DNA of 14,909 nt from a virus (Duplodnaviria; Heunggongvirae; Uroviricota; Caudoviricetes). Shown here one piece after another: positions 1 through 9,789 of the stretch (its first letter is position 1; each line of letters begins with the position of its first letter). The notes beneath the pieces are model-generated. The model was not told the origin of the DNA. It saw only the letters and a list, made by a program, of their open reading frames with translations, and did not search any database. The DNA lies in the IMG/VR virus record IMGVR_UViG_2869976549_000004, positions 1-14,909 of that record; one strand, written 5' to 3'. The position numbers and the translations under genes were made by a program.

Positions 1-200
1 CACAACATCCGAGGACAGCATCGTCCGCCAGCCTACAGAAGTCCGGAAAGCCATGGAAGGTCGTTGGGAGGAGGTACGAATTCTATCATGCAAAAAATAC
101 GTAAAATCGATAACGCCTAGAAATCATTCAATACTCGCACTATCGAAAGTTTACCAGCCAACCGCGGCACGTTCCTGCATACGACGTGCCGCAGCTTCTG

Positions 201-1437: not shown

Positions 1438-1480
1438 TGAGGTGTACTGGCAATAGCGGACACTACCATTTGTTCTTTTT

Positions 1481-2299
1481 TTAAGCAGCCATCTGATGAT
1501 ATTTTTCCCTGAAGGCTGCCGGGGAGATATTCCCCAGACGAGAGTGACGACGCTGACGATTGTAGAAAATCTCAATGTATTCCCGTATTACTGAGATGGC
1601 TTCATCCCGGTTATTAAAACGATAGTGGCTCAGGCTCTCATTTTTCAGCGTTCCCCAGAAGCTTTCCATCGGAGCGTTGTCGTAACAGTTACCTTTACGC
1701 GACATTGATGTTTTCAGACCAGACTGCTCCTGTATGACCCGGTAATCGTATGCGCAGTACTGTGAACCTCGATCAGAGTGGTGGATTAGCCCGGCAGGTG
1801 GGCGCTGGCTCCTGAGCGCCATAAACAGGGCTTTACCTGTCAGCTCTTTTGTCATGCGCTCTCCCATGGCGTAGCCGACAATTTCGCACGTATAAACATC
1901 TTTGATGCCAGCGAGGTACAACCATCCCTCCTGTGTGGCAACATACGTCAGGTCCGCCACCCAGACCTGATTTGGTGCTGTAGGAGCGAACGTCTGGTTC
2001 AGCAGATTTGGCGCAACTGGCAGATTGTGGTTCGAGTTCGTAGTCGCTCTGAACTTGCGTTTCTGCTTACAGCGTAGCCTTAGCTCCTTACGAAGACGTG
2101 CCAGTCGGTCACGACCAACGATGATGCCATTCTCTGCCAGCTCCGTCTGGAGCCGCCGGGTTCCATATGTTTCGCGAGTGCGGATATGTGCCACCTTAAT
2201 CTCCAGTTTTAGCCGCTCATCACTTTGTTTTCTGTCTGAGGGTTCATGCTGTACCCAGTTGTAATAACCGCTCCTGGATACACCAAATACCTGACACAT
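1481..2299 (-). CDS. IS600 OrfB transposase catalytic part (DDE integrase-like)
   Basis: 272-aa ORF identical to OrfB of copy B. Its upstream OrfA-OrfB fusion region is broken by the IS1 insertion. Confidence 0.85.
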   Translation of the reverse strand: MCQVFGVSRSGYYNWVQHEPSDRKQSDERLKLEIKVAHIRTRETYGTRRLQTELAENGIIVGRDRLARLRKELRLRCKQKRKFRATTNSNHNLPVAPNLLNQTFAPTAPNQVWVADLTYVATQEGWLYLAGIKDVYTCEIVGYAMGERMTKELTGKALFMALRSQRPPAGLIHHSDRGSQYCAYDYRVIQEQSGLKTSMSRKGNCYDNAPMESFWGTLKNESLSHYRFNNRDEAISVIREYIEIFYNRQRRHSRLGNISPAAFREKYHQMAA

Positions 2300-2372
2300 C
2301 GCTTCAATGGGAAATTGGGTGATGCTGCCAACTTACTGATTTAGTGTATGATGGTGTTTTTGAGGTGCTCCA

Positions 2373-2648
2373 GTGGCTTCTGTTTCTATCAGCTGTCCCT
2401 CCTGTTCAGCTACTGACGGGGTGGTGCGTAACGGCAAAAGCACTGCCGGACATCAGCGCTATCTCTGCTCTCACTGCCGTAAAACATGGCAACTGCAGTT
2501 CACTTACACCGCTTCTCAACCCGGTACGCACCAGAAAATCATTGATATGGCCATGAATGGCGTTGGATGCCGGGCAACTGCACGCATTATGGGCGTTGGC
2601 CTCAACACGATTTTACGTCACTTAAAAAACTCAGGCCGCAGTCGGTAA
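2373..2648 (+). CDS. insA: IS1 InsA
   Basis: 91-aa [25 protein letters not shown]..., the zinc-finger/HTH InsA protein of IS1. The A6C frameshift motif (2624..2630) is near its 3' end. Confidence 0.95.
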
Positions 2649-3070
2649 CCTCGCGCATACAGCCGGGCAGTGACGTCATCGTCTGCGCGGAAATGGACGA
2701 ACAGTGGGGCTATGTCGGGGCTAAATCGCGCCAGCGCTGGCTGTTTTACGCGTATGACAGTCTCCGGAAGACGGTTGTTGCGCACGTATTCGGTGAACGC
2801 ACTATGGCGACGCTGGGGCGTCTTATGAGCCTGCTGTCACCCTTTGACGTGGTGATATGGATGACGGATGGCTGGCCGCTGTATGAATCCCGCCTGAAGG
2901 GAAAGCTGCACGTAATCAGCAAGCGATATACGCAGCGAATTGAGCGGCATAACCTGAATCTGAGGCAGCACCTGGCACGGCTGGGACGGAAGTCGCTGTC
3001 GTTCTCAAAATCGGTGGAGCTGCATGACAAAGTCATCGGGCATTATCTGAACATAAAACACTATCAATAA
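2567..3070 (+). CDS. insB: IS1 InsB frame (expressed as InsAB' by -1 frameshift)
   Basis: 167-aa ORF matching IS1 InsB, in the -1 frame relative to insA. Confidence 0.9.
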
Positions 3071-3085
3071 GTTGGAGTCATTACC

Positions 3086-3370
3086 CGACTCCTGTGCAAA
3101 ATACGCTGTTGCTTTTTTTAATATATCTCGCTCAAGGCGAGCTTCATTTAACGCCTTACGCAGTTGCAGAATTTCAGATTCCAGTTCAGCCACCGTGCGG
3201 GAACCAGGAGTACCGAGCCCTTTTCTGGCGGCGGTAACCCATTGTCCTAAAGTGCCTTCAGGAAGAGATAATCGGGAAGCGCCTTCACTGATCGAAAGTT
3301 GATTTTCAGGAACCGTTCTGACAGCTTCGGCTTTGAACTCTTTAGAGTAACGTTGGGTTTTTCTGCTCAT
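3086..3370 (-). pseudogene. IS600 orfA, first 95 codons; 3' end replaced by the IS1 insertion
   Basis: Identical to orfA of copy B up to ...AYFAQES, then diverges into IS1 sequence. Confidence 0.85.
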
Positions 3371-3434
3371 TATTAGCTCCTTCTGATGCCATTCTATTTC
3401 AGGAAGGAGTGTCCGTTAAACTCAGGCTACCTCA

Positions 3435-3471
3435 TTCTGGCGAGTCGTTTTTTGGAGTGTTCGCGGGCTTT
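3435..3471 (-). pseudogene. 37-bp sliver between IS600 copy A and IS21, probably a continuation of the terminase large subunit reading frame
   Basis: After removing IS21 and one copy of the CTTT duplication, the terminase frame continues without a stop (K-A-R-E-H-S-K-K-R-L-A-R) to the IS600 end. Twelve open codons is weak evidence. Confidence 0.3.
3468..3471. repeat. IS21 target-site duplication CTTT (low-coordinate copy)
   Basis: CTTT immediately flanks both IS21 termini (3468..3471 and 5602..5605); 4 bp could match by chance. Confidence 0.5.
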
Positions 3472-3530
3472 TGTCAACGCCACGATGTTTGACCGTTATT
3501 TGCCATTTTCATGCCCGCTAAATACTTTCG

Positions 3531-5500
<1,970 letters not shown>

Positions 5501-5601
5501 GTTGATGTCCTTTCTGGTGTGAGAACCTTAAGGAAACAACATGTTGGGTGGAGCGGACAATCCAAATGGCGAATTACCGTCTTATATCACTGGCGCTGAC
5601 A

Positions 5602-5605
5602 CTTT
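5602..5605. repeat. IS21 target-site duplication CTTT (high-coordinate copy)
   Basis: Matches 3468..3471. Confidence 0.5.
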
Positions 5606-5926
5606 TTCCTCCGTCATCTGAATAATCAGCATATCAGCAGGATCGCAAATCACGTTGTAAATCACCCAGCCGTCAATCAGGCCGATAGTCTTGCCGGTTC
5701 GTGCCGGGCCAACAAATATCACTGCGTCGTATTCACGCGAGGCCAGGCAGTTCATCGGCTCAATAACATACGGTGCCACCAGCGGATCCCACGGGACTGA
5801 GTTCCCTGCCCCCATGGGCACCCGCATATACTGAGCAACGGCATCAGCAACCCGCATTCGTCTCGGTGCGCGAAGGATATAACCTGAATCGGTTCGTGCT
5901 GCCTTTGCGGTTTCCTGATTCAGCAT
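5602..5926 (-). pseudogene. Terminase large subunit (lambda gpA family), N-terminal ~108 codons, truncated by IS21
   Basis: Start ATG at 5926 overlaps the small-subunit stop (TAATG). Contains a P-loop (VGPARTGKT) at the position of lambda gpA's KSARVGYSK. The ORF-track stop at 5582 lies inside the IS21 terminus. Confidence 0.75.
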
Positions 5927-6420
5927 TACTCCTCCTGCTGTAATTCCTCCTCATCATCCGCACCTGCTTCAGTCACCCGCAGGGCTATCTGATCGCGCAG
6001 ATCATCAATAATGGACTGAACACGGCTCACAGCGGCAGGCTGCAGACCGCAGTCACGTTCAAGAATATCCGGTAATGTCTCCAGCACCTGCACGACCGCT
6101 TTTGCCCAGATGGCAAACTCCCGTCTGACATCACTGGCCGGAATGAGTTGTGCCGTTTCCTGTTCGAACTTAAGACGCTCACGTTCAGACTGATACCAGG
6201 CTTTGCGCTCATGCGCGTCCATTTCGCCTTCTGCAACCGGCGGTGGTAATGCCAGAAATGCCGACACAATATCAACCACCCGATAAAGCTTGAGGTTGCT
6301 TTCATGCCCCCCTGCAACGGGTAGATTTTGCAGCCTTGCCGCAGCAGTCTGGCGATGTACACCTGACAGTGCCGCCAGTTGACTGATATTCAGCGTCAGA
6401 TTTTTTAACTCTCGATCCAT
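5926..6420 (-). CDS. Terminase small subunit (Nu1-like)
   Basis: 164 aa; the N-terminal LNISQLAALSGVHRQTAAARLQ region resembles the Nu1 winged-HTH; acidic C-terminus; sits between cos and the large-subunit gene. Confidence 0.75.
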   Translation of the reverse strand: MDRELKNLTLNISQLAALSGVHRQTAAARLQNLPVAGGHESNLKLYRVVDIVSAFLALPPPVAEGEMDAHERKAWYQSERERLKFEQETAQLIPASDVRREFAIWAKAVVQVLETLPDILERDCGLQPAAVSRVQSIIDDLRDQIALRVTEAGADDEEELQQEE

Positions 6421-6522
6421 ACCCGCTCCAGAATGTTTTAAACATGCATCTTGCGAACAACTTTAGGCAAACGGTGTTAGTGATGAACAAAAAACAATCA
6501 AAATCGACACCATAAAAATAAA

Positions 6523-6552
6523 ACTACTGTAATATCAATCCATTACAGTAGT
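6523..6552. repeat. Perfect 11-bp inverted repeat with 8-bp spacer (actactgtaat-atcaatcc-attacagtagt) in the cosB-equivalent region
   Basis: Read directly from the sequence; lies between the predicted cosN and the Nu1 start codon. Confidence 0.6.
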
Positions 6553-6590
6553 GGTGATGACGAATGAAATTTCAAAAACTAGCCTTTTTC

Positions 6591-6640
6591 CGCGCCGCTC
6601 CCGCCCCGTGGCAGGCCACCCCACCGGGAGGACCCGTCAG
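6591..6640 (-). other. cos site candidate (cosN plus cosQ-like element)
   Basis: Minus strand reads GACGGGTCCTCCCGGTG-(15 nt ending ACG)-GGGCGGGAGCGG-CGCGG. Lambda has ACGGGTCCTTTCCGGTG-(15 nt ending ACG)-GGGCGGCGACCT-CGCGG. Flanks and cosQ-like block are conserved; the 12-nt core differs at 6 positions. Lambda sequence is recalled from memory. Confidence 0.45.
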
Positions 6641-6777
6641 CCTGACAGCCATGACGAACGTCTGATACAGCGCCCTGCATGAATGACATCGGGATAATCC
6701 AGAAAGGAATAGCATCGTACCCACAAGAATCAGTGTAAGTGTCCTGTTTCTTCCACCCCCGCACAGGACTGGCGAGC

Positions 6778-6954
6778 ATGAGGGACAAACCCGCGAACCA
6801 TAAACGCGGTAAAAACCCGGTGTGCATCGTTTTTGATTATTCCCGCACACTCGCGCAGAAGGAGTTCCCCGTCGGGCTACGGTCATGGTTAATACGGGAA
6901 TACGACGACGATACAGCGCATGATGTGTCAGGCTTGAATACCTTTATCCGTTAA
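6778..6954 (+). CDS. hypothetical small protein (58 aa from ATG 6778; ORF track starts at GTG 6739) in the bor/moron position
   Basis: Opposite strand to the lysis genes; AGGA 9 nt upstream of the ATG; followed by a plus-strand terminator-like hairpin at 7001..7029. No family recognised. Confidence 0.3.
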   Translation: MRDKPANHKRGKNPVCIVFDYSRTLAQKEFPVGLRSWLIREYDDDTAHDVSGLNTFIR

Positions 6955-7035: not shown

Positions 7036-7062
7036 AATAAAAAGCCCCGCGAATGCGAGGCT
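7036..7062 (-). terminator. putative intrinsic terminator downstream of Rz
   Basis: Minus-strand RNA gccucgc-auuc-gcggggc (7-bp stem with one G-U pair) followed by UUUUUAUU. Confidence 0.5.
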
Positions 7063-7235
7063 AAATCCTGGTATTTGTAATGACTGGCTCTTATCTCAAC
7101 GCAGCCCCTTACCGCGCGCAAAATGCTCAATATCAAGCATCAGCAATGAGATGTTTAATCTGGATTCACTCCAGAAGTGAGCACCACCCTGTCTACAGAG
7201 CCAGATGTGAAGGATGATGAGTAAAATTATCGCTA

Positions 7236-7703
7236 TCATCGAAGGCATTGCGTCCTGATGTATTCCTGAAGCGTTCTCAGTGCTGTTTGGTCGCGGATAA
7301 TTCCGTCCCGGATACCGAGAACGTTTCGTCCAGCAACTGGAGAGAGTTCGACGGTGGCATCATTGCCCATGCCGGAGGCGCTGGAGGTTTCGGCTGAGGA
7401 TGGCACAGGGCATTTTCCTTTGACGAGCACCCGACCACCATTATCAAGCTTGCGCCGAAGAGCATCATTTTCAGCTTTCGCATCAGCTAACTCCTTCGTG
7501 TATTTAGCATCGAGTGCATCAGCATCACGCTGGCGCTGCTGCATGTCAGTAATGGTTGCGTTCGCCAGCTTCAGTTCTCTTGCGTTTTTGTCGCGCTGCT
7601 CTTTGTAGGTAATGGCGTTATCACGGTAATGATTAACAGCCCATGACAGGCGGACGATGATGCAGATAACCAGAGCGGAGATAATCGCGGTGACTCTGCT
7701 CAT
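7236..7703 (-). CDS. Rz: Spanin inner-membrane subunit Rz
   Basis: [17 protein letters not shown]... closely resembles lambda Rz; ATG at 7703 overlaps the R stop (ATGA). ORF track starts 4 codons earlier at 7715. Confidence 0.85.
7277..7483 (-). CDS. Rz1: Spanin outer-membrane lipoprotein Rz1, embedded in Rz in the +1 frame
   Basis: 68 aa with signal peptide and lipobox (LIMVVGCSS) and a proline-rich segment ([11 protein letters not shown]). Confidence 0.8.
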
Positions 7704-8197
7704 TGCTGCCCCCACAAACAGACTTCACGCTCAATCTCACGACGGGTCATCAGCCCTTTCCATTGCTTACCGCCAGCATATGTCCAGCGACGTAGCTGGT
7801 CACATGCGCCTTTGATATAGCCCTGGTTTATTTTGCGAAGAAGCGTCGATGTTCTGAAATTGCCAGCGCCCACGTTGTAAACGAACGAGTAAAGAGCGCC
7901 GCGCGTTGTTTCCGGTATATCGACTTTGATGTACGGGTTAATTTGTCTGGCGACAGTGGCAAGGTCTTTATTCAGGAGAGCTTTGCATTCTGCTTCGGTA
8001 TACGTTTTACCAGGCATGATGTCTTTTCCGGTGTGTCCGTGACATACAGTCCATACACCAATGATATCTTTGTATGGTATGTAGCTGACACCTTCCAGAC
8101 CATCGTTACCACCTGGGCCAGTGATTAACACAGATGCTATAGCAACAGCCCCGCCACCAATAGCAACTGCAACAGCCTTGCGTAATGATGGCGACAT
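7700..8197 (-). CDS. R: SAR endolysin (phage 21 R-type lysozyme)
   Basis: 165 aa; N-terminal Gly/Ala-rich signal-anchor-release domain ([18 protein letters not shown]), then the E-x8-D-x5-T lysozyme motif; strongly resembles phage 21 R as I recall it. Confidence 0.9.
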
Positions 8198-8412
8198 TAT
8201 TCACCTCTCGCAGCCTTACGCTTATCTTCTCTTATTTTGAAATACAGATTCGTCAGATAAGTCAGAAGCCCCAGAAGCAGACTTCCCAGCACACCAATCG
8301 CAGCCCACTGTGATGGACTGACCTGATCCAACCACTGCAAAAACCAGTAGCCGGCACTGCCGGCGGAGGTGCCGTAGGCAATGCCCGTTGAAATTTTGTC
8401 CATGGATTTCAT
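8197..8412 (-). CDS. S: Pinholin S (phage 21 S-type), dual-start holin/antiholin
   Basis: [27 protein letters not shown]..., 71 aa with Met1-Lys-Ser-Met4 dual start; SD GGAGGTGAGG upstream; stop overlaps the R start (TAATG). The 125-aa ORF-track version begins inside the IS600 end. Confidence 0.9.
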
Positions 8413-8522
8413 AGCCTCACCTCCGCAAATAACGGATGGCGTAGTTTTACACTGAGAAATGAAAGGGATTTGAAAAGAAAAAAACGCAAAAGCGGGCGAA
8501 ACGATATATACAGTAAGGAAAG

Positions 8523-8525
8523 CAC
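8523..8525. repeat. IS600 copy B target-site duplication CAC (left copy)
   Basis: CAC directly flanks both ends (8523..8525 and 9790..9792); 3-bp duplications are typical of the IS3 family. Confidence 0.55.
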
Positions 8526-8589
8526 TGAGGTAGCCTGAGTTTAACGGACACTCCTTCCTGAAATAGAATGGCATCAGAAGGAGCTAATA

Positions 8590-8892
8590 ATGAGCAGAAA
8601 AACCCAACGTTACTCTAAAGAGTTCAAAGCCGAAGCTGTCAGAACGGTTCCTGAAAATCAACTTTCGATCAGTGAAGGCGCTTCCCGATTATCTCTTCCT
8701 GAAGGCACTTTAGGACAATGGGTTACCGCCGCCAGAAAAGGGCTCGGTACTCCTGGTTCCCGCACGGTGGCTGAACTGGAATCTGAAATTCTGCAACTGC
8801 GTAAGGCGTTAAATGAAGCTCGCCTTGAGCGAGATATATTAAAAAAAGCAACAGCGTATTTTGCACAGGAGTCGCTGAAAAATACGCGTTAA
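8590..8892 (+). CDS. IS600 OrfA (HTH DNA-binding transposase subunit)
   Basis: 100-aa ORF MSRKTQRYSKEFKAEAVRTV... with a leucine-zipper-like C-terminus. Confidence 0.9.
   Translation: MSRKTQRYSKEFKAEAVRTVPENQLSISEGASRLSLPEGTLGQWVTAARKGLGTPGSRTVAELESEILQLRKALNEARLERDILKKATAYFAQESLKNTR
8841..8847 (+). other. Programmed -1 ribosomal frameshift heptamer A-AAA-AAA (OrfA to OrfAB fusion)
   Basis: A7 run in the orfA zero frame; orfB is in the -1 frame. The same motif is at 13470..13476 in copy C and as T7 at 3113..3119 in copy A. Confidence 0.6.
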
Positions 8893-8927
8893 TCGAACAA
8901 TGGCGACAACAATTTCCCATTGAAGCG

Positions 8928-9746
8928 ATGTGTCAGGTATTTGGTGTATCCAGGAGCGGTTATTACAACTGGGTACAGCATGAACCCTCAGACAGAAAAC
9001 AAAGTGATGAGCGGCTAAAACTGGAGATTAAGGTGGCACATATCCGCACTCGCGAAACATATGGAACCCGGCGGCTCCAGACGGAGCTGGCAGAGAATGG
9101 CATCATTGTTGGTCGTGACCGACTGGCACGTCTTCGTAAGGAGCTAAGGCTACGCTGTAAGCAGAAACGCAAGTTCAGAGCGACTACGAACTCGAACCAC
9201 AATCTGCCAGTTGCGCCAAATCTGCTGAACCAGACGTTCGCTCCTACAGCACCAAATCAGGTCTGGGTGGCGGACCTGACGTATGTTGCCACACAGGAGG
9301 GATGGTTGTACCTCGCTGGCATCAAAGATGTTTATACGTGCGAAATTGTCGGCTACGCCATGGGAGAGCGCATGACAAAAGAGCTGACAGGTAAAGCCCT
9401 GTTTATGGCGCTCAGGAGCCAGCGCCCACCTGCCGGGCTAATCCACCACTCTGATCGAGGTTCACAGTACTGCGCATACGATTACCGGGTCATACAGGAG
9501 CAGTCTGGTCTGAAAACATCAATGTCGCGTAAAGGTAACTGTTACGACAACGCTCCGATGGAAAGCTTCTGGGGAACGCTGAAAAATGAGAGCCTGAGCC
9601 ACTATCGTTTTAATAACCGGGATGAAGCCATCTCAGTAATACGGGAATACATTGAGATTTTCTACAATCGTCAGCGTCGTCACTCTCGTCTGGGGAATAT
9701 CTCCCCGGCAGCCTTCAGGGAAAAATATCATCAGATGGCTGCTTAA
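8928..9746 (+). CDS. IS600 OrfB (DDE catalytic domain), expressed as OrfAB fusion
   Basis: 272-aa ORF in the -1 frame relative to orfA. Confidence 0.9.
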   Translation: MCQVFGVSRSGYYNWVQHEPSDRKQSDERLKLEIKVAHIRTRETYGTRRLQTELAENGIIVGRDRLARLRKELRLRCKQKRKFRATTNSNHNLPVAPNLLNQTFAPTAPNQVWVADLTYVATQEGWLYLAGIKDVYTCEIVGYAMGERMTKELTGKALFMALRSQRPPAGLIHHSDRGSQYCAYDYRVIQEQSGLKTSMSRKGNCYDNAPMESFWGTLKNESLSHYRFNNRDEAISVIREYIEIFYNRQRRHSRLGNISPAAFREKYHQMAA

Positions 9747-9789
9747 AAAAAGAACAAATGGTAGTGTCCGCTATTGCCAGTACACCTCA

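What the first reader, a model, noticed from the sequence alone, without database searches (positions are those of the whole stretch)
6523..6640. Lambda-like cos site with a divergent predicted 12-nt cohesive end
On the minus strand, a cosQ-like block (GACGGGTCCTCCCGGTG) and the ACG / GGGCGG ... CGCGG frame line up with lambda cos at the same spacing, but the 12-nt core is GGGCGGGAGCGG rather than GGGCGGCGACCT. As I recall, lambda, 21, phi80 and 82 share identical cohesive ends, so a variant core with a gpA/Nu1-type terminase would be unusual. The adjacent 11-bp perfect palindrome (6523..6552) sits where Nu1-binding R sites would be.
Basis: partly seen in the sequence, partly recalled or inferred. 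Interest (0 to 1): 0.55.

Follow-up and report, generated by a model that had tools for sequence, protein, structure and literature searches.

The report
Common variant lambda-type cos site
This is a genuine lambda-type DNA-packaging (cos) site left in an IS-wrecked prophage, but its "divergent" 12-base sticky end is a common natural variant that follows a published rule, so the finding is correct but ordinary.

Summary
On the minus strand, a cosQ heptamer (GGGTCCT, 6635..6629) lies 22 nt upstream of ACG|GGGCGGGAGCGG|CGCGG (12-mer 6606..6595). That frame lies 186 nt upstream of a small-terminase gene (6420..5926) and a gpA-type large-terminase fragment.

Homology to lambda cos is significant: 51/78 identical, z 6.5. 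Phage mEp460 carries the identical cosQ-cosN. The records of phages cdtI and Tritos begin and end exactly at the predicted nick. Ayreon's virion assembly breaks exactly across the predicted overhang.

The "unusual" claim fails. Feiss and colleagues have published that bp 7-12 of lambda-like cohesive ends vary naturally, while bp 1-6, the flanking CG pairs and cosQ stay fixed. This exact 12-mer was in 20 of 124 viral-contig cos sites. The region is in 1546 of 5426 complete E. coli genomes.

The small subunit is Pfam DUF1441, a remote Nu1 relative.

The palindrome is best read as the I1-type IHF site of cosB. It holds an exact WATCAANNNNTTR match with an A-tract alongside. Repeated TCATCAYCA elements are the better R-site candidates.

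The prophage is defective because terL is cut by an IS21-family element. Verdict: already known, low interest.

The parts
   Evidence: It is identical to the lambda heptamer at the equivalent place. It is present in 120 of 124 census cos sites although it was not part of the search pattern. It lies 22 nt from the nick in non-lambda types and 23 nt in lambda types. That cosQ is this 7-bp element is from my memory of Wieczorek & Feiss 2001. PMC4669245 states that cosQ shows no natural variation.
6593..6608 (-). cosN: CG | GGGCGGGAGCGG | CG. The predicted top-strand nick is between 6607 and 6606, and the bottom-strand nick between 6595 and 6594. This gives a 12-nt 5' overhang GGGCGGGAGCGG (6606..6595).
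   Evidence: The frame is unique in the window, against 0.01 expected. The cdtI record starts, and the Tritos record ends, exactly here. mEp460 is identical. bp 1-6 and the flanking CG pairs match lambda, and only bp 7, 8, 9, 11 and 12 differ. That is the published pattern of natural variation (PMC4669245). The overhang itself is inferred, not measured.
6565..6589 (-). I2-like A/T-tract segment (bp 18-42): AAAAAGGCTAGTTTTTGAAATTTCA
   Evidence: It is nearly invariant among relatives, and it is also kept in cdtI and Tritos, which have a different TerS and cosB. It sits at the position of lambda I2, a bent segment at bp 18-50 (PMC4856287). It shares GCTA at bp 24-27 and TGAAA..TTT with lambda, but similarity to lambda over this segment alone is not significant.
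6551..6563 (-). R3-like candidate TerS site TCGTCATCACCAC (bp 44-56)
   Evidence: The motif TCATCAYCA (up to 1 mismatch) gives 3-5 hits per cosB against about 0.1 expected. It falls at conserved positions in the window, VT1-Sakai, Fels-1 and mEp213-type cos sites, and it is absent from cdtI-type cosB. Lambda R3 is at bp 50-65 (PMC9026076).
6523..6552 (-).
   Evidence: It is real. It is 11/11 only in the window and 2 of 36 same-TerS relatives. It is usually 9-10/11, and 2-5/11 in sister subgroups. There is no covariation beyond shuffles.
6533..6545 (+). IHF core consensus TATCAATCCATTA (WATCAANNNNTTR), candidate I1 site of cosB. On the same strand the A-tract AAAAATAAAA lies 5' of it, within 6512..6523.
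   Evidence: It is an exact consensus match. The window has only 3 such matches, against 0.56 expected, and the other two lie in the IS1 copies. The match is kept in 34 of 36 same-TerS relatives while the N positions vary. ATTGA is invariant across all three TerS subgroups. It is positioned like lambda I1, bp 65-90 (PMC4856287). The VT1-Sakai segment at this place is 19/28 identical to lambda I1, z 4.1.
6503..6514 (-). R2-like candidate (inverted), TATGGTGTCGAT (bp 93-104)
   Evidence: Clear inverted copies, AAGATGATGATT, lie at the same place in VT1-Sakai and Fels-1. The window copy is degenerate (2 mismatches), so this is the weakest of the three assignments.
6477..6489 (-). R1-like candidate (direct), TGTTCATCACTAA (bp 118-130)
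   Evidence: A direct TCATCACTA copy lies at bp 121. Equivalent copies lie at bp 119-122 in Fels-1 and mEp213-type cos sites.
5926..6420 (-). terS, small terminase subunit, 164 aa, intact; ATG at bp 187 from the nick (lambda Nu1 at bp 191)
   Evidence: Pfam DUF1441 at 2.7e-41. PHROG 141 'terminase small subunit' at 7e-74, and a weak hit to Nu1's PHROG 57. It is 100% identical to the TerS of phages vB_EcoS-569R4, vB_EcoS-813R6 and Ayreon.
5602..5926 (-). terL 5' fragment (gpA-type), first 108 codons only
   Evidence: Pfam GpA_ATPase at 7.8e-18. tblastn matches only aa 1-108 of the 700-aa TerL of 569R4. A further 38 bp continue at 3472..3435.
3473..5601 (-). IS21-family element (istA 4328..5500, istB 3531..4331) inserted in terL
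   Evidence: Pfam rve and Mu-transposase C-terminal domains, and IstB_IS21. terL homology resumes on the far side with a 5-bp overlap, consistent with a target-site duplication.
7236..8574 (-). Lysis cassette upstream of cos: holin, endolysin, Rz
   Evidence: Pfam Phage_holin_2_1, Phage_lysozyme and Phage_lysis. It is colinear at 95% identity with phage 569R4 from holin to terL.

Best explanation
The region 6477..6638 (minus strand) is the cos site of a lambdoid prophage of the mEp460 / vB_EcoS-569R4 type. It has the same modular layout as lambda cos.

In an intact relative I infer the following steps:
1. The DUF1441-type small terminase subunit binds repeated TCATCAYCA elements in cosB. These are R3-like at bp 44-56, R2-like (inverted) at about bp 93-104, and R1-like at about bp 118-130.
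3. This anchors the gpA-type large subunit on cosN. The large subunit nicks after ACG on the top strand and 12 bp further on the bottom strand, leaving the 5' overhang GGGCGGGAGCGG.
4. cosQ (GGGTCCT, 22 nt upstream) serves termination when the next cos arrives.

The 12-mer keeps bp 1-6 and the flanking CG pairs of lambda and differs only in bp 7-12. That half is the one that tolerates change, because the bottom-strand nick is positioned by the cosB anchor.

In this window the site is a relic. terL is cut after codon 108 by an IS21-family insertion, and the head genes are gone, so the element cannot package itself.

Shown: the sequence anatomy, the homology, the commonness, the record ends of relatives, and the defectiveness of the prophage. 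Inferred: the overhang chemistry, TerS binding to the TCATCAYCA elements, and IHF binding.
For: Anatomy and position:
- The order is lysis genes, cos, terS, terL, with the TerS ATG at bp 187 against lambda's 191.

Homology to lambda cos:
- 51/78 identities, z 6.5.
- The cosN frame is unique in the window, against 0.01 expected.

Virion ends in relatives:
- cdtI starts, and Tritos ends, exactly at the predicted nick, with GGGCGGGAGCGT as the first 12 nt.
- In Ayreon's virion-derived assembly, bp 4-15 are replaced by a 153-nt chimera of its own Q and terS genes. This is a gap-filling artefact at the place where reads stop.
- The viable phage mEp460 has the identical cosQ-cosN.
- The same frame reproduces the published mEp213 end (PMC12315714).

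Published rule that bp 7-12 vary while bp 1-6, the flanks and cosQ are fixed:
- PMC4669245 section 14.
- PMC9303873, summarising Vahanian et al. 2017.

Census:
- 13 different 12-mers, all starting GGGCGG.
- The window's TerS type occurs with 4 different 12-mers.
- cosQ is present in 120/124 sites.

cosB model:
- The TCATCAYCA motif is enriched about 30-fold at conserved positions and orientations across diverged relatives.
- The IHF consensus is exact, and it is conserved while its N positions vary.
- The lambda coordinates used for comparison are R3 50-65, I1 65-90, R2 109-124 and R1 151-166 (PMC4856287; PMC9026076).
Against: - No direct end determination for a phage with exactly this 12-mer was accessible. 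I could not read Asakura 2007 or Vahanian 2017, so I do not know whether the cdtI and Tritos record ends were measured or set by analogy with lambda.
- Relatives differ in the spacing between the flanks. mEp460_4F5 has 9 nt and VT1-Sakai has 11 nt, so the overhang length in this family may not always be 12.
- The R2-like copy in the window is degenerate.
- The MDHELKNLVLNI subgroup has no TCATCAYCA hit at up to 1 mismatch.
- Direct similarity of the window's I1 segment to lambda I1 is not significant.
- The TerS shows no BLASTP or PDB similarity to Nu1.
Confidence: 0.85

Rival explanations
1. The palindrome (6523..6552) is the binding site of a dimeric small terminase subunit.
For: - It lies at bp 55-84, where lambda has R3/I1.
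- The inner 7 bp, CTGTAAT/ATTACAG, are well conserved in the main TerS subgroup.
- TerS DNA-binding domains of lambda and N15 are dimeric (PMC9026076).
Against: - It is absent (2-5/11 complementary) from the two sister subgroups, whose TerS N-termini are nearly the same.
- The outer 4 bp vary freely.
- The repeated element shared across the whole TerS family is TCATCAYCA, not this sequence.
- The spacer and inner arms are fully accounted for by an exact IHF consensus.
Confidence: 0.12
2. The palindrome plus the T-run acts at the RNA level. It would be a weak intrinsic terminator or stabilising hairpin on the late transcript just upstream of terS, read through by Q-modified polymerase.
For: - It meets the terminator-like pattern: 12 pairs, a 6-nt loop and the tail TTTATTTTTA, on the late-transcript strand.
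- The RNA fold is -17.2 kcal/mol, z -3.5.
- 95.5% of cells pair if G-U is allowed.
- Departures are mostly top-strand G-U (34) rather than A-C (6).
Against: - Pairing and covariation are not above column-shuffle controls: 95.5% against 95.1%, with 108/500 shuffles as high, and covariation with 56/500.
- 24 of the 34 G-U cells are one inherited column.
- The stem has only 3 G-C pairs.
- The hairpin is missing from the sister subgroups although the T-run is kept there.
- The number of terminator-like sites found is within shuffle expectation.
Confidence: 0.12
3. The site is the family's cos, but the overhang is not the 12-mer as drawn. The nicks would lie 1-3 nt away or give a shorter overhang.
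For: - Spacing between the conserved flanks is 9 nt in mEp460_4F5 and 11 nt in VT1-Sakai.
- Cr-LKS3, a phage with a homologous DUF1441-type TerS, has a measured 9-nt end. Lambda-like ends are reported to range from 7 to 12 nt (PMC9303873).
Against: - 124 of 124 census sites were selected for 12-nt spacing and show the lambda-like flanks.
- The cdtI and Tritos records use exactly the 12-nt frame.
- The 4F5 difference may be an assembly error at the genome end.
Confidence: 0.1
4. The resemblance to lambda cos is a chance match in GC-rich sequence and has no packaging role.
For: - A stringent local alignment to lambda is within shuffle range.
- The bare 20-mer hits 36 unrelated GC-rich genomes by chance.
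Against: - The global alignment has z 6.5.
- The position between the lysis and terminase genes is conserved.
- cosQ and the I2-like segment are conserved across diverged phages.
- Phage record ends fall at the nick.
Confidence: 0.02

Closest known systems
Bacteriophage lambda cos (cosQ-cosN-I2-cosB[R3-I1-R2-R1])
   Same: - The order and orientation of the sub-sites are the same.
- The cosQ heptamer GGGTCCT is the same.
- ACG|GGGCGG at the top-strand nick and CGCGG after the overhang are the same.
- There is an A/T-tract segment after cosN.
- There is an IHF-type site between the first two repeated elements.
- The TerS start codon lies about 187-191 bp from the nick.
- The large subunit is gpA-type.
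   Different: - bp 7, 8, 9, 11 and 12 of the overhang differ (GAGCGG against CGACCT).
- cosQ lies 22 rather than 23 nt from the nick.
- The R elements are unrelated in sequence (TCATCAYCA against GTCGTTTCCTTTCT).
- R3-to-R2 is about 48 bp against about 59 bp.
- The small subunit is Pfam DUF1441 rather than Phage_Nu1.
cos of phages mEp460, vB_EcoS-569R4 and Ayreon (same TerS) and of cdtI and Tritos (same cosQ-cosN-I2, different TerS and cosB)
   Same: - mEp460 is identical through cosQ-cosN.
- The TerS is 99-100% identical.
- cdtI and Tritos share cosQ, bp 1-11 of the 12-mer, and bp 13-33.
   Different: - cdtI, Tritos and 569R4 have T instead of G at bp 12.
- cdtI-type cosB lacks the TCATCAYCA elements.
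- Those are intact phages, whereas the window copy sits in a prophage whose terL is destroyed.
Natural cosN variants described by the Feiss laboratory (N15, phiD326, Gifsy-1, mEp213)
   Same: Variation is confined to bp 7-12, with bp 1-6, the flanking CG pairs and cosQ conserved (PMC4669245; PMC12315714).
   Different: The window differs from lambda at five of the six variable positions, which is more than N15 (2) or Gifsy-1 (3). I could not check whether this exact 12-mer is listed in Vahanian et al. 2017.

Membership tests
lambda-like cos site | cosN with conserved left half (GGGCGG) and CG dinucleotides flanking both nick positions, 12 bp apart | tested here: met
   ACG|GGGCGGGAGCGG|CGCGG at 6609..6590. 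The feature is as defined in PMC4669245 and PMC9026076.
lambda-like cos site | cosQ element upstream of cosN at fixed distance | tested here: met
   GGGTCCT at 6635..6629, 22 nt from the nick. The same spacing is found in 97 of 120 census sites, against 23 nt in lambda types.
lambda-like cos site | cosB: repeated small-subunit binding elements with an IHF site, lying between cosN and terS | tested here: inconclusive
   There are candidate R3-, R2- and R1-like TCATCAYCA elements and an exact IHF consensus in the lambda-like arrangement. Binding was not tested, and the R2-like copy is degenerate.
lambda-like cos site | Immediately upstream of terS and a gpA-type terL, and downstream of the lysis genes | tested here: met
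   Pfam and PHROG assignments, and colinearity with phage 569R4.
lambda-like cos site | Virion DNA carries complementary 5' single-stranded ends generated at this site | not testable with these tools
   The support is indirect only: the cdtI and Tritos record termini fall at the nick, and the Ayreon assembly breaks across bp 4-15. The papers that might hold the measurements were not available.
Nu1-family small terminase subunit (Pfam Phage_Nu1) | Sequence membership in the Nu1 family | tested here: not met
   Pfam gives DUF1441 only. BLASTP against Nu1 has E = 20, and there is no PDB hit. Only reciprocal weak PHROG cross-hits were found, 8e-10 and 6e-8, which indicate remote homology.
gpA-family large terminase subunit | GpA ATPase domain | tested here: met
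   PF05876 at 7.8e-18 on the 114-aa fragment, which is 100% identical to aa 1-108 of the 569R4 TerL. The gene is truncated here.
IHF binding site (I1 type) | WATCAANNNNTTR core with an A/T-rich tract 5' of it | tested here: met
   TATCAATCCATTA at 6533..6545 (+), with AAAAATAAAA 5' of it on the same strand. It is conserved in 34/36 same-TerS relatives. Binding itself was not tested.

The most novel reading that the evidence does not exclude
An orphan but sequence-intact cos with an intact terS, sitting in an IS-scrambled chromosome, could still be cut by the terminase of a co-resident or superinfecting phage of the same specificity. It would then act as a fixed start point for helper-driven packaging and transfer of the adjacent chromosomal DNA, in the direction of decreasing window coordinates.

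Separately, the subgroup-specific hairpin inside cosB could couple late transcription to packaging.
Probability: 0.05. Interest if true: 0.45.

Novelty: already known. Interest (0 to 1): 0.12.

Why it matters
It matters little beyond annotation.

- It gives a precise cos assignment for a very common class of E. coli and Shigella lambdoid prophages (mEp460, 569R4, cdtI and Stx-phage relatives). Their small terminase subunit is still labelled 'DUF1441 family protein' in RefSeq.
- It gives a testable cosB model for that TerS family: TCATCAYCA repeats around an IHF site.
- It flags a misassembly in a public phage record (Ayreon).
- It does not challenge current understanding. It is a textbook illustration of the published rule that the right half of the lambda-type cohesive end is free to drift.

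Tried and rejected
- A stringent local alignment to lambda was no better than shuffles. It was replaced by a global alignment of the defined segment.
- Full-text searches for the 12-mer and its variants found only G-quadruplex and unrelated papers.
- Vahanian et al. 2017 and Asakura et al. 2007 are not held. No paper on phage Tritos was found.
- A PDB sequence search and BLASTP of the TerS against Nu1 found nothing.
- A genome-contig scan for the terL/IS junction, meant to identify the source strain, found no hit.
- A genome-contig scan for the 20-mer gave 36 chance hits of 40.
- The covariation test of the palindrome as a hairpin was not above the controls.
- Direct similarity of the window's I1 segment to lambda I1, and of the I2 segment alone, was not significant.
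- I rejected using the mEp460 and Ayreon record ends as evidence for cos. Both records are opened at an arbitrary ATG at window 6445 (PMC5764929).

Full report
**1. Observation**

- GACGGGTCCTCCCGGTG at 6638..6622
- ACG at 6609..6607
- GGGCGGGAGCGG at 6606..6595
- CGCGG at 6594..6590
- a perfect 11-bp inverted repeat with an 8-bp spacer at 6552..6523

I fetched the real lambda sequence rather than rely on memory. Its junction reads ...ACGGGTCCTTTCCGGTGATCCGACAGGTTACG|GGGCGGCGACCT|CGCGGGTTTTCGC, with the Nu1 ATG at bp 191.

The evidence that this is more than chance:
- A stringent local alignment was no better than shuffles.
- A global alignment of lambda -34..+44 with the window gives 51/78 identities, z = 6.5, and 0 of 2000 shuffles as good.
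- The frame ACGGGGCGG-N6-CGCGG occurs once in the window, against 0.01 expected.
- The bare 20-mer is not specific. In 596 Gb of genomes, 36 of 40 hits were chance matches in GC-rich organisms. The case therefore rests on context.

**2. Context**

From 8427 down to 5602, the window is colinear at 95% identity with phage vB_EcoS-569R4. The order is holin, endolysin, Rz, a roughly 600-bp spacer, the cos region, terS, and the first 108 codons of terL.

- The terS product (164 aa, 6420..5926) is 100% identical to the TerS of phages 569R4, 813R6 and Ayreon, and 99% identical to that of mEp460.
- It is Pfam DUF1441 and PHROG 141 'terminase small subunit'.
- Lambda Nu1 is PHROG 57, and each protein weakly hits the other's family (8e-10 and 6e-8). 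BLASTP and a PDB search find nothing. The small subunit is therefore a remote relative of Nu1, not a member of the Nu1 family.
- The large-subunit fragment is gpA-type.
- terL is interrupted after codon 108 by an IS21-family element (3473..5601). It is flanked by a 5-bp repeat of terL sequence. After 38 more bp, terL is cut again by IS3-family and IS1 copies.

The prophage is therefore defective, and the cos site is a relic in this genome.

**3. Is it the cos site, and is the nick where predicted?**

Several independent lines agree.

(a) The record of phage cdtI starts GGGCGGGAGCGT CGCGGAAAAAGGCTAG and ends ...GGGTCCTTCCGGTGGGGTGGCCTGCCACG. The record of phage Tritos has the same start and ends ...GGGTCCTCCCGGTGGGGGCCCCTGCCACG. 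Both records are therefore opened exactly at the predicted top-strand nick, with a 12-mer one base different from the window's.

(b) The plaque-forming phage mEp460 carries the identical sequence from cosQ through cosN, including GGGCGGGAGCGG.

(c) Applying the same frame to mEp213 yields GGGCGGCGCGCT. That is the putative cohesive end published for mEp213 and LLS, credited there to an analysis by M. Feiss (PMC12315714).

(d) Phage Ayreon was sequenced from virions, and its authors did not determine cos (PMC5764929).
- Its assembly matches the window up to ...CCACGGGG and resumes at GGAAAAAGGCTAG.
- In between, bp 4-15 are replaced by 153 nt that are a chimera of Ayreon's own Q gene (from 39875) and its own terS (from 362).
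- This is a gap-filling artefact at the place where virion reads stop.

None of this is a direct measurement of a 5' overhang. I could not read Asakura 2007 or Vahanian 2017.

**4. Is the variant core unusual?**

No. The Feiss laboratory has published the following (PMC4669245, section 14):
- Mutations in bp 7-12 of lambda cosN have little effect.
- Natural variation among lambda-like phages lies in that half. N15 and phiD326 differ at bp 9 and 12, and Gifsy-1 at bp 8, 9 and 11.
- bp 1-6, the CG pairs flanking both nicks, and cosQ are conserved.

A dedicated survey exists (Vahanian et al. 2017). [quoted passage not shown]

The window fits this exactly. It differs from lambda only at bp 7, 8, 9, 11 and 12.

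A census supports the same conclusion. I scanned public viral contigs with the pattern CCGGTG-N10-14-ACGGGGCGG-N6-CGCGG. It gave 124 sites with 13 different 12-mers:

| 12-mer | Sites |
|---|---|
| GGGCGGGAGCGT | 62 |
| GGGCGGGAGCGG (the window's) | 20 |
| GGGCGGCGACCT (lambda's) | 19 |
| GGGCGGCAGCGG | 10 |
| GGGCGGAAGGCG | 5 |
| eight others | 1 each |

Further points from the census and from E. coli genomes:
- The window's TerS type occurs with four different 12-mers.
- A TerS 82% identical to lambda Nu1 lies next to GGGCGGAAGGCG. So variant cores also occur with true Nu1-type terminases.
- The cosQ heptamer was not part of the search pattern, yet it is present in 120 of 124 sites. It lies 22 nt from the nick in the non-lambda types and 23 nt in the lambda type.
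- Among complete E. coli genomes, the window-type cos region is found in 1546 of 5426, and the lambda-type region in 4592 of 5426.

**5. The palindrome and cosB**

The palindrome spans bp 55-84, counting from the first base of the predicted overhang. Lambda has R3 at bp 50-65 and I1 at bp 65-90 (PMC9026076, PMC4856287).

Conservation of the palindrome:
- Among 36 unique relatives with the same TerS type, only 2 have 11/11 complementary positions. Most have 9-10.
- The two sister TerS subgroups (MDRELKNLMLNI, MDHELKNLVLNI) have only 2-5.
- What is invariant across all three subgroups is ATTGA (bp 68-72) and the T-run at bp 84-95.

Evidence that it is an IHF site:
- On the window's plus strand this region reads AAAAATAAAA-N9-TATCAATCCATTA. 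That is an exact match to the IHF core WATCAANNNNTTR, with an A-tract 5' of it.
- The window has only three exact core matches, against 0.56 expected. The other two lie in the two IS1 copies.
- The core is kept in 34 of 36 same-TerS relatives while its N positions vary.
- In VT1-Sakai the segment at this place is 19/28 identical to lambda I1, z 4.1. The window's own segment is not significantly similar to lambda I1.

Candidate R sites:
- A different repeated element, TCATCAYCA, occurs 3-5 times per cosB, against about 0.1 expected.
- It falls at conserved positions: direct at bp 44-56, inverted at about bp 94-105, and direct at about bp 119-130.
- It is found in the window, VT1-Sakai, Fels-1 and mEp213-type cos sites, but not in cdtI-type cosB.
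- This is the lambda arrangement R3 - I1 - R2 (inverted) - R1. Lambda has R3 at 50-65, R2 at 109-124 and R1 at 151-166.

My reading is that the palindrome's spacer and inner arms are the I1-type IHF site, and that the TCATCAYCA elements are the likelier TerS sites. The R2-like copy in the window is degenerate, and none of this binding has been tested.

**6. Rival readings of the palindrome**

The palindrome plus its T-run satisfies a terminator-like pattern on the late-transcript strand, and it folds at -17.2 kcal/mol, z -3.5. With G-U allowed, 95.5% of cells pair.

Against this reading:
- Column shuffles give 95.1%, with 108 of 500 as high. Covariation is not above the controls (56 of 500).
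- Most G-U cells come from one inherited column.
- The hairpin is absent from the sister subgroups.

A dimeric-TerS operator is not excluded, but it is not favoured, for the same comparative reasons.

**7. The segment after cosN**

bp 13-34 (CGCGGAAAAAGGCTAGTTTTTG) is nearly invariant, and it is shared with cdtI and Tritos, whose TerS and cosB differ. It therefore travels with cosN and TerL rather than with TerS. It lies where lambda has the bent I2 segment, needed for an early packaging step (PMC4856287). It shares GCTA at bp 24-27 with lambda. Similarity over this segment alone is not significant.

**8. Verdict**

The finding is a correct identification of a lambda-type cos site, with a correct prediction of the nick frame. 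Its point of interest, the divergent core, is ordinary and already described as a class. The exact sequence is present in a deposited phage genome and in many prophages.

The palindrome is a subgroup-specific feature overlying a probable IHF site. The copy in this window is a relic in an IS-riddled defective prophage.

Novelty: already known. Interest: low.

Noticed in passing
L131 (Ayreon MF807953) 44410..44562; corresponds to window ~6603..6592: The public Ayreon record carries a 153-nt chimeric insert at cosN, made of copies of its own Q gene (from 39875) and its own terS (from 362). The CDS annotated there as 'putative late gene regulator' (44298..44582) spans this artefact.
   Followed up: yes
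L005 (mEp460_4F5 LR595868) 1..25; L133 (VT1-Sakai) around the match: The spacing between the conserved ACG and CGCGG flanks is 9 nt in mEp460_4F5 (GGGCGGGAG) and 11 nt in VT1-Sakai (GGGCGGGCGGG), instead of 12. These are either real shorter cohesive ends, as reported for other lambda-like phages, or assembly errors at genome ends.
   Followed up: partly
window 1438..3434, 3473..5601, 8526..9789, 12248..13015, 13155..14418: The window is dense with insertion sequences. There are two 768-bp IS1 copies (2318..3085, 12248..13015). There are three copies of a 1264-bp IS3-family element, which is IS600-like by size from memory; one of them is split by IS1. One IS21-family element lies inside terL. 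This pattern suggests a Shigella or enteroinvasive E. coli chromosome, but the source strain was not identified.
   Followed up: partly
window 3062..3074 and 12992..13004 (+): Exact IHF-consensus matches (TATCAATAAGTTG) lie near one end of both IS1 copies. They served as an internal positive control for the IHF pattern scan.
   Followed up: no
window 6572..6886 (-): A 104-aa ORF runs across cosQ and cosN. Relatives annotate an equivalent 'hypothetical protein' (for example mEp460_059). It has no Pfam hit and only a 26-residue PHROG match. It is probably not a gene but an open frame in GC-rich cos DNA.
   Followed up: partly
window 5926..6420 (-); E. coli RefSeq hits H113-H124: RefSeq/PGAP names this protein 'DUF1441 family protein' in E. 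coli genomes, although phage records and PHROGs call it the small terminase subunit. This is an annotation gap for a protein found in over a quarter of complete E. coli genomes.
   Followed up: no
window 10472..11912 (-) and 14403..14909 (+): Further lambdoid remnants are present: a Q-type antiterminator-like protein (DUF1133/Phage_antitermQ), YbcO and DUF1367 (nin-region genes). They are separated from the lysis genes by an IS3-family copy. An integrase fragment lies at the window edge.
   Followed up: no
L155 (MAG labelled Veillonella parvula) and L158 (MAG labelled Bacillota): Two metagenome-assembled genomes assigned to Firmicutes carry contigs with an Escherichia-type cos (cosQ, cosN and AAAAAGGCTAG). 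The contigs are most likely mis-binned.
   Followed up: no
window 7043..7062 (-): A G+C-rich terminator-like hairpin (AGCCTCGCATTCGCGGGGCT followed by TTTTATTGCC) lies between Rz and cos, after a small conserved ORF (7099..7197).
   Followed up: no
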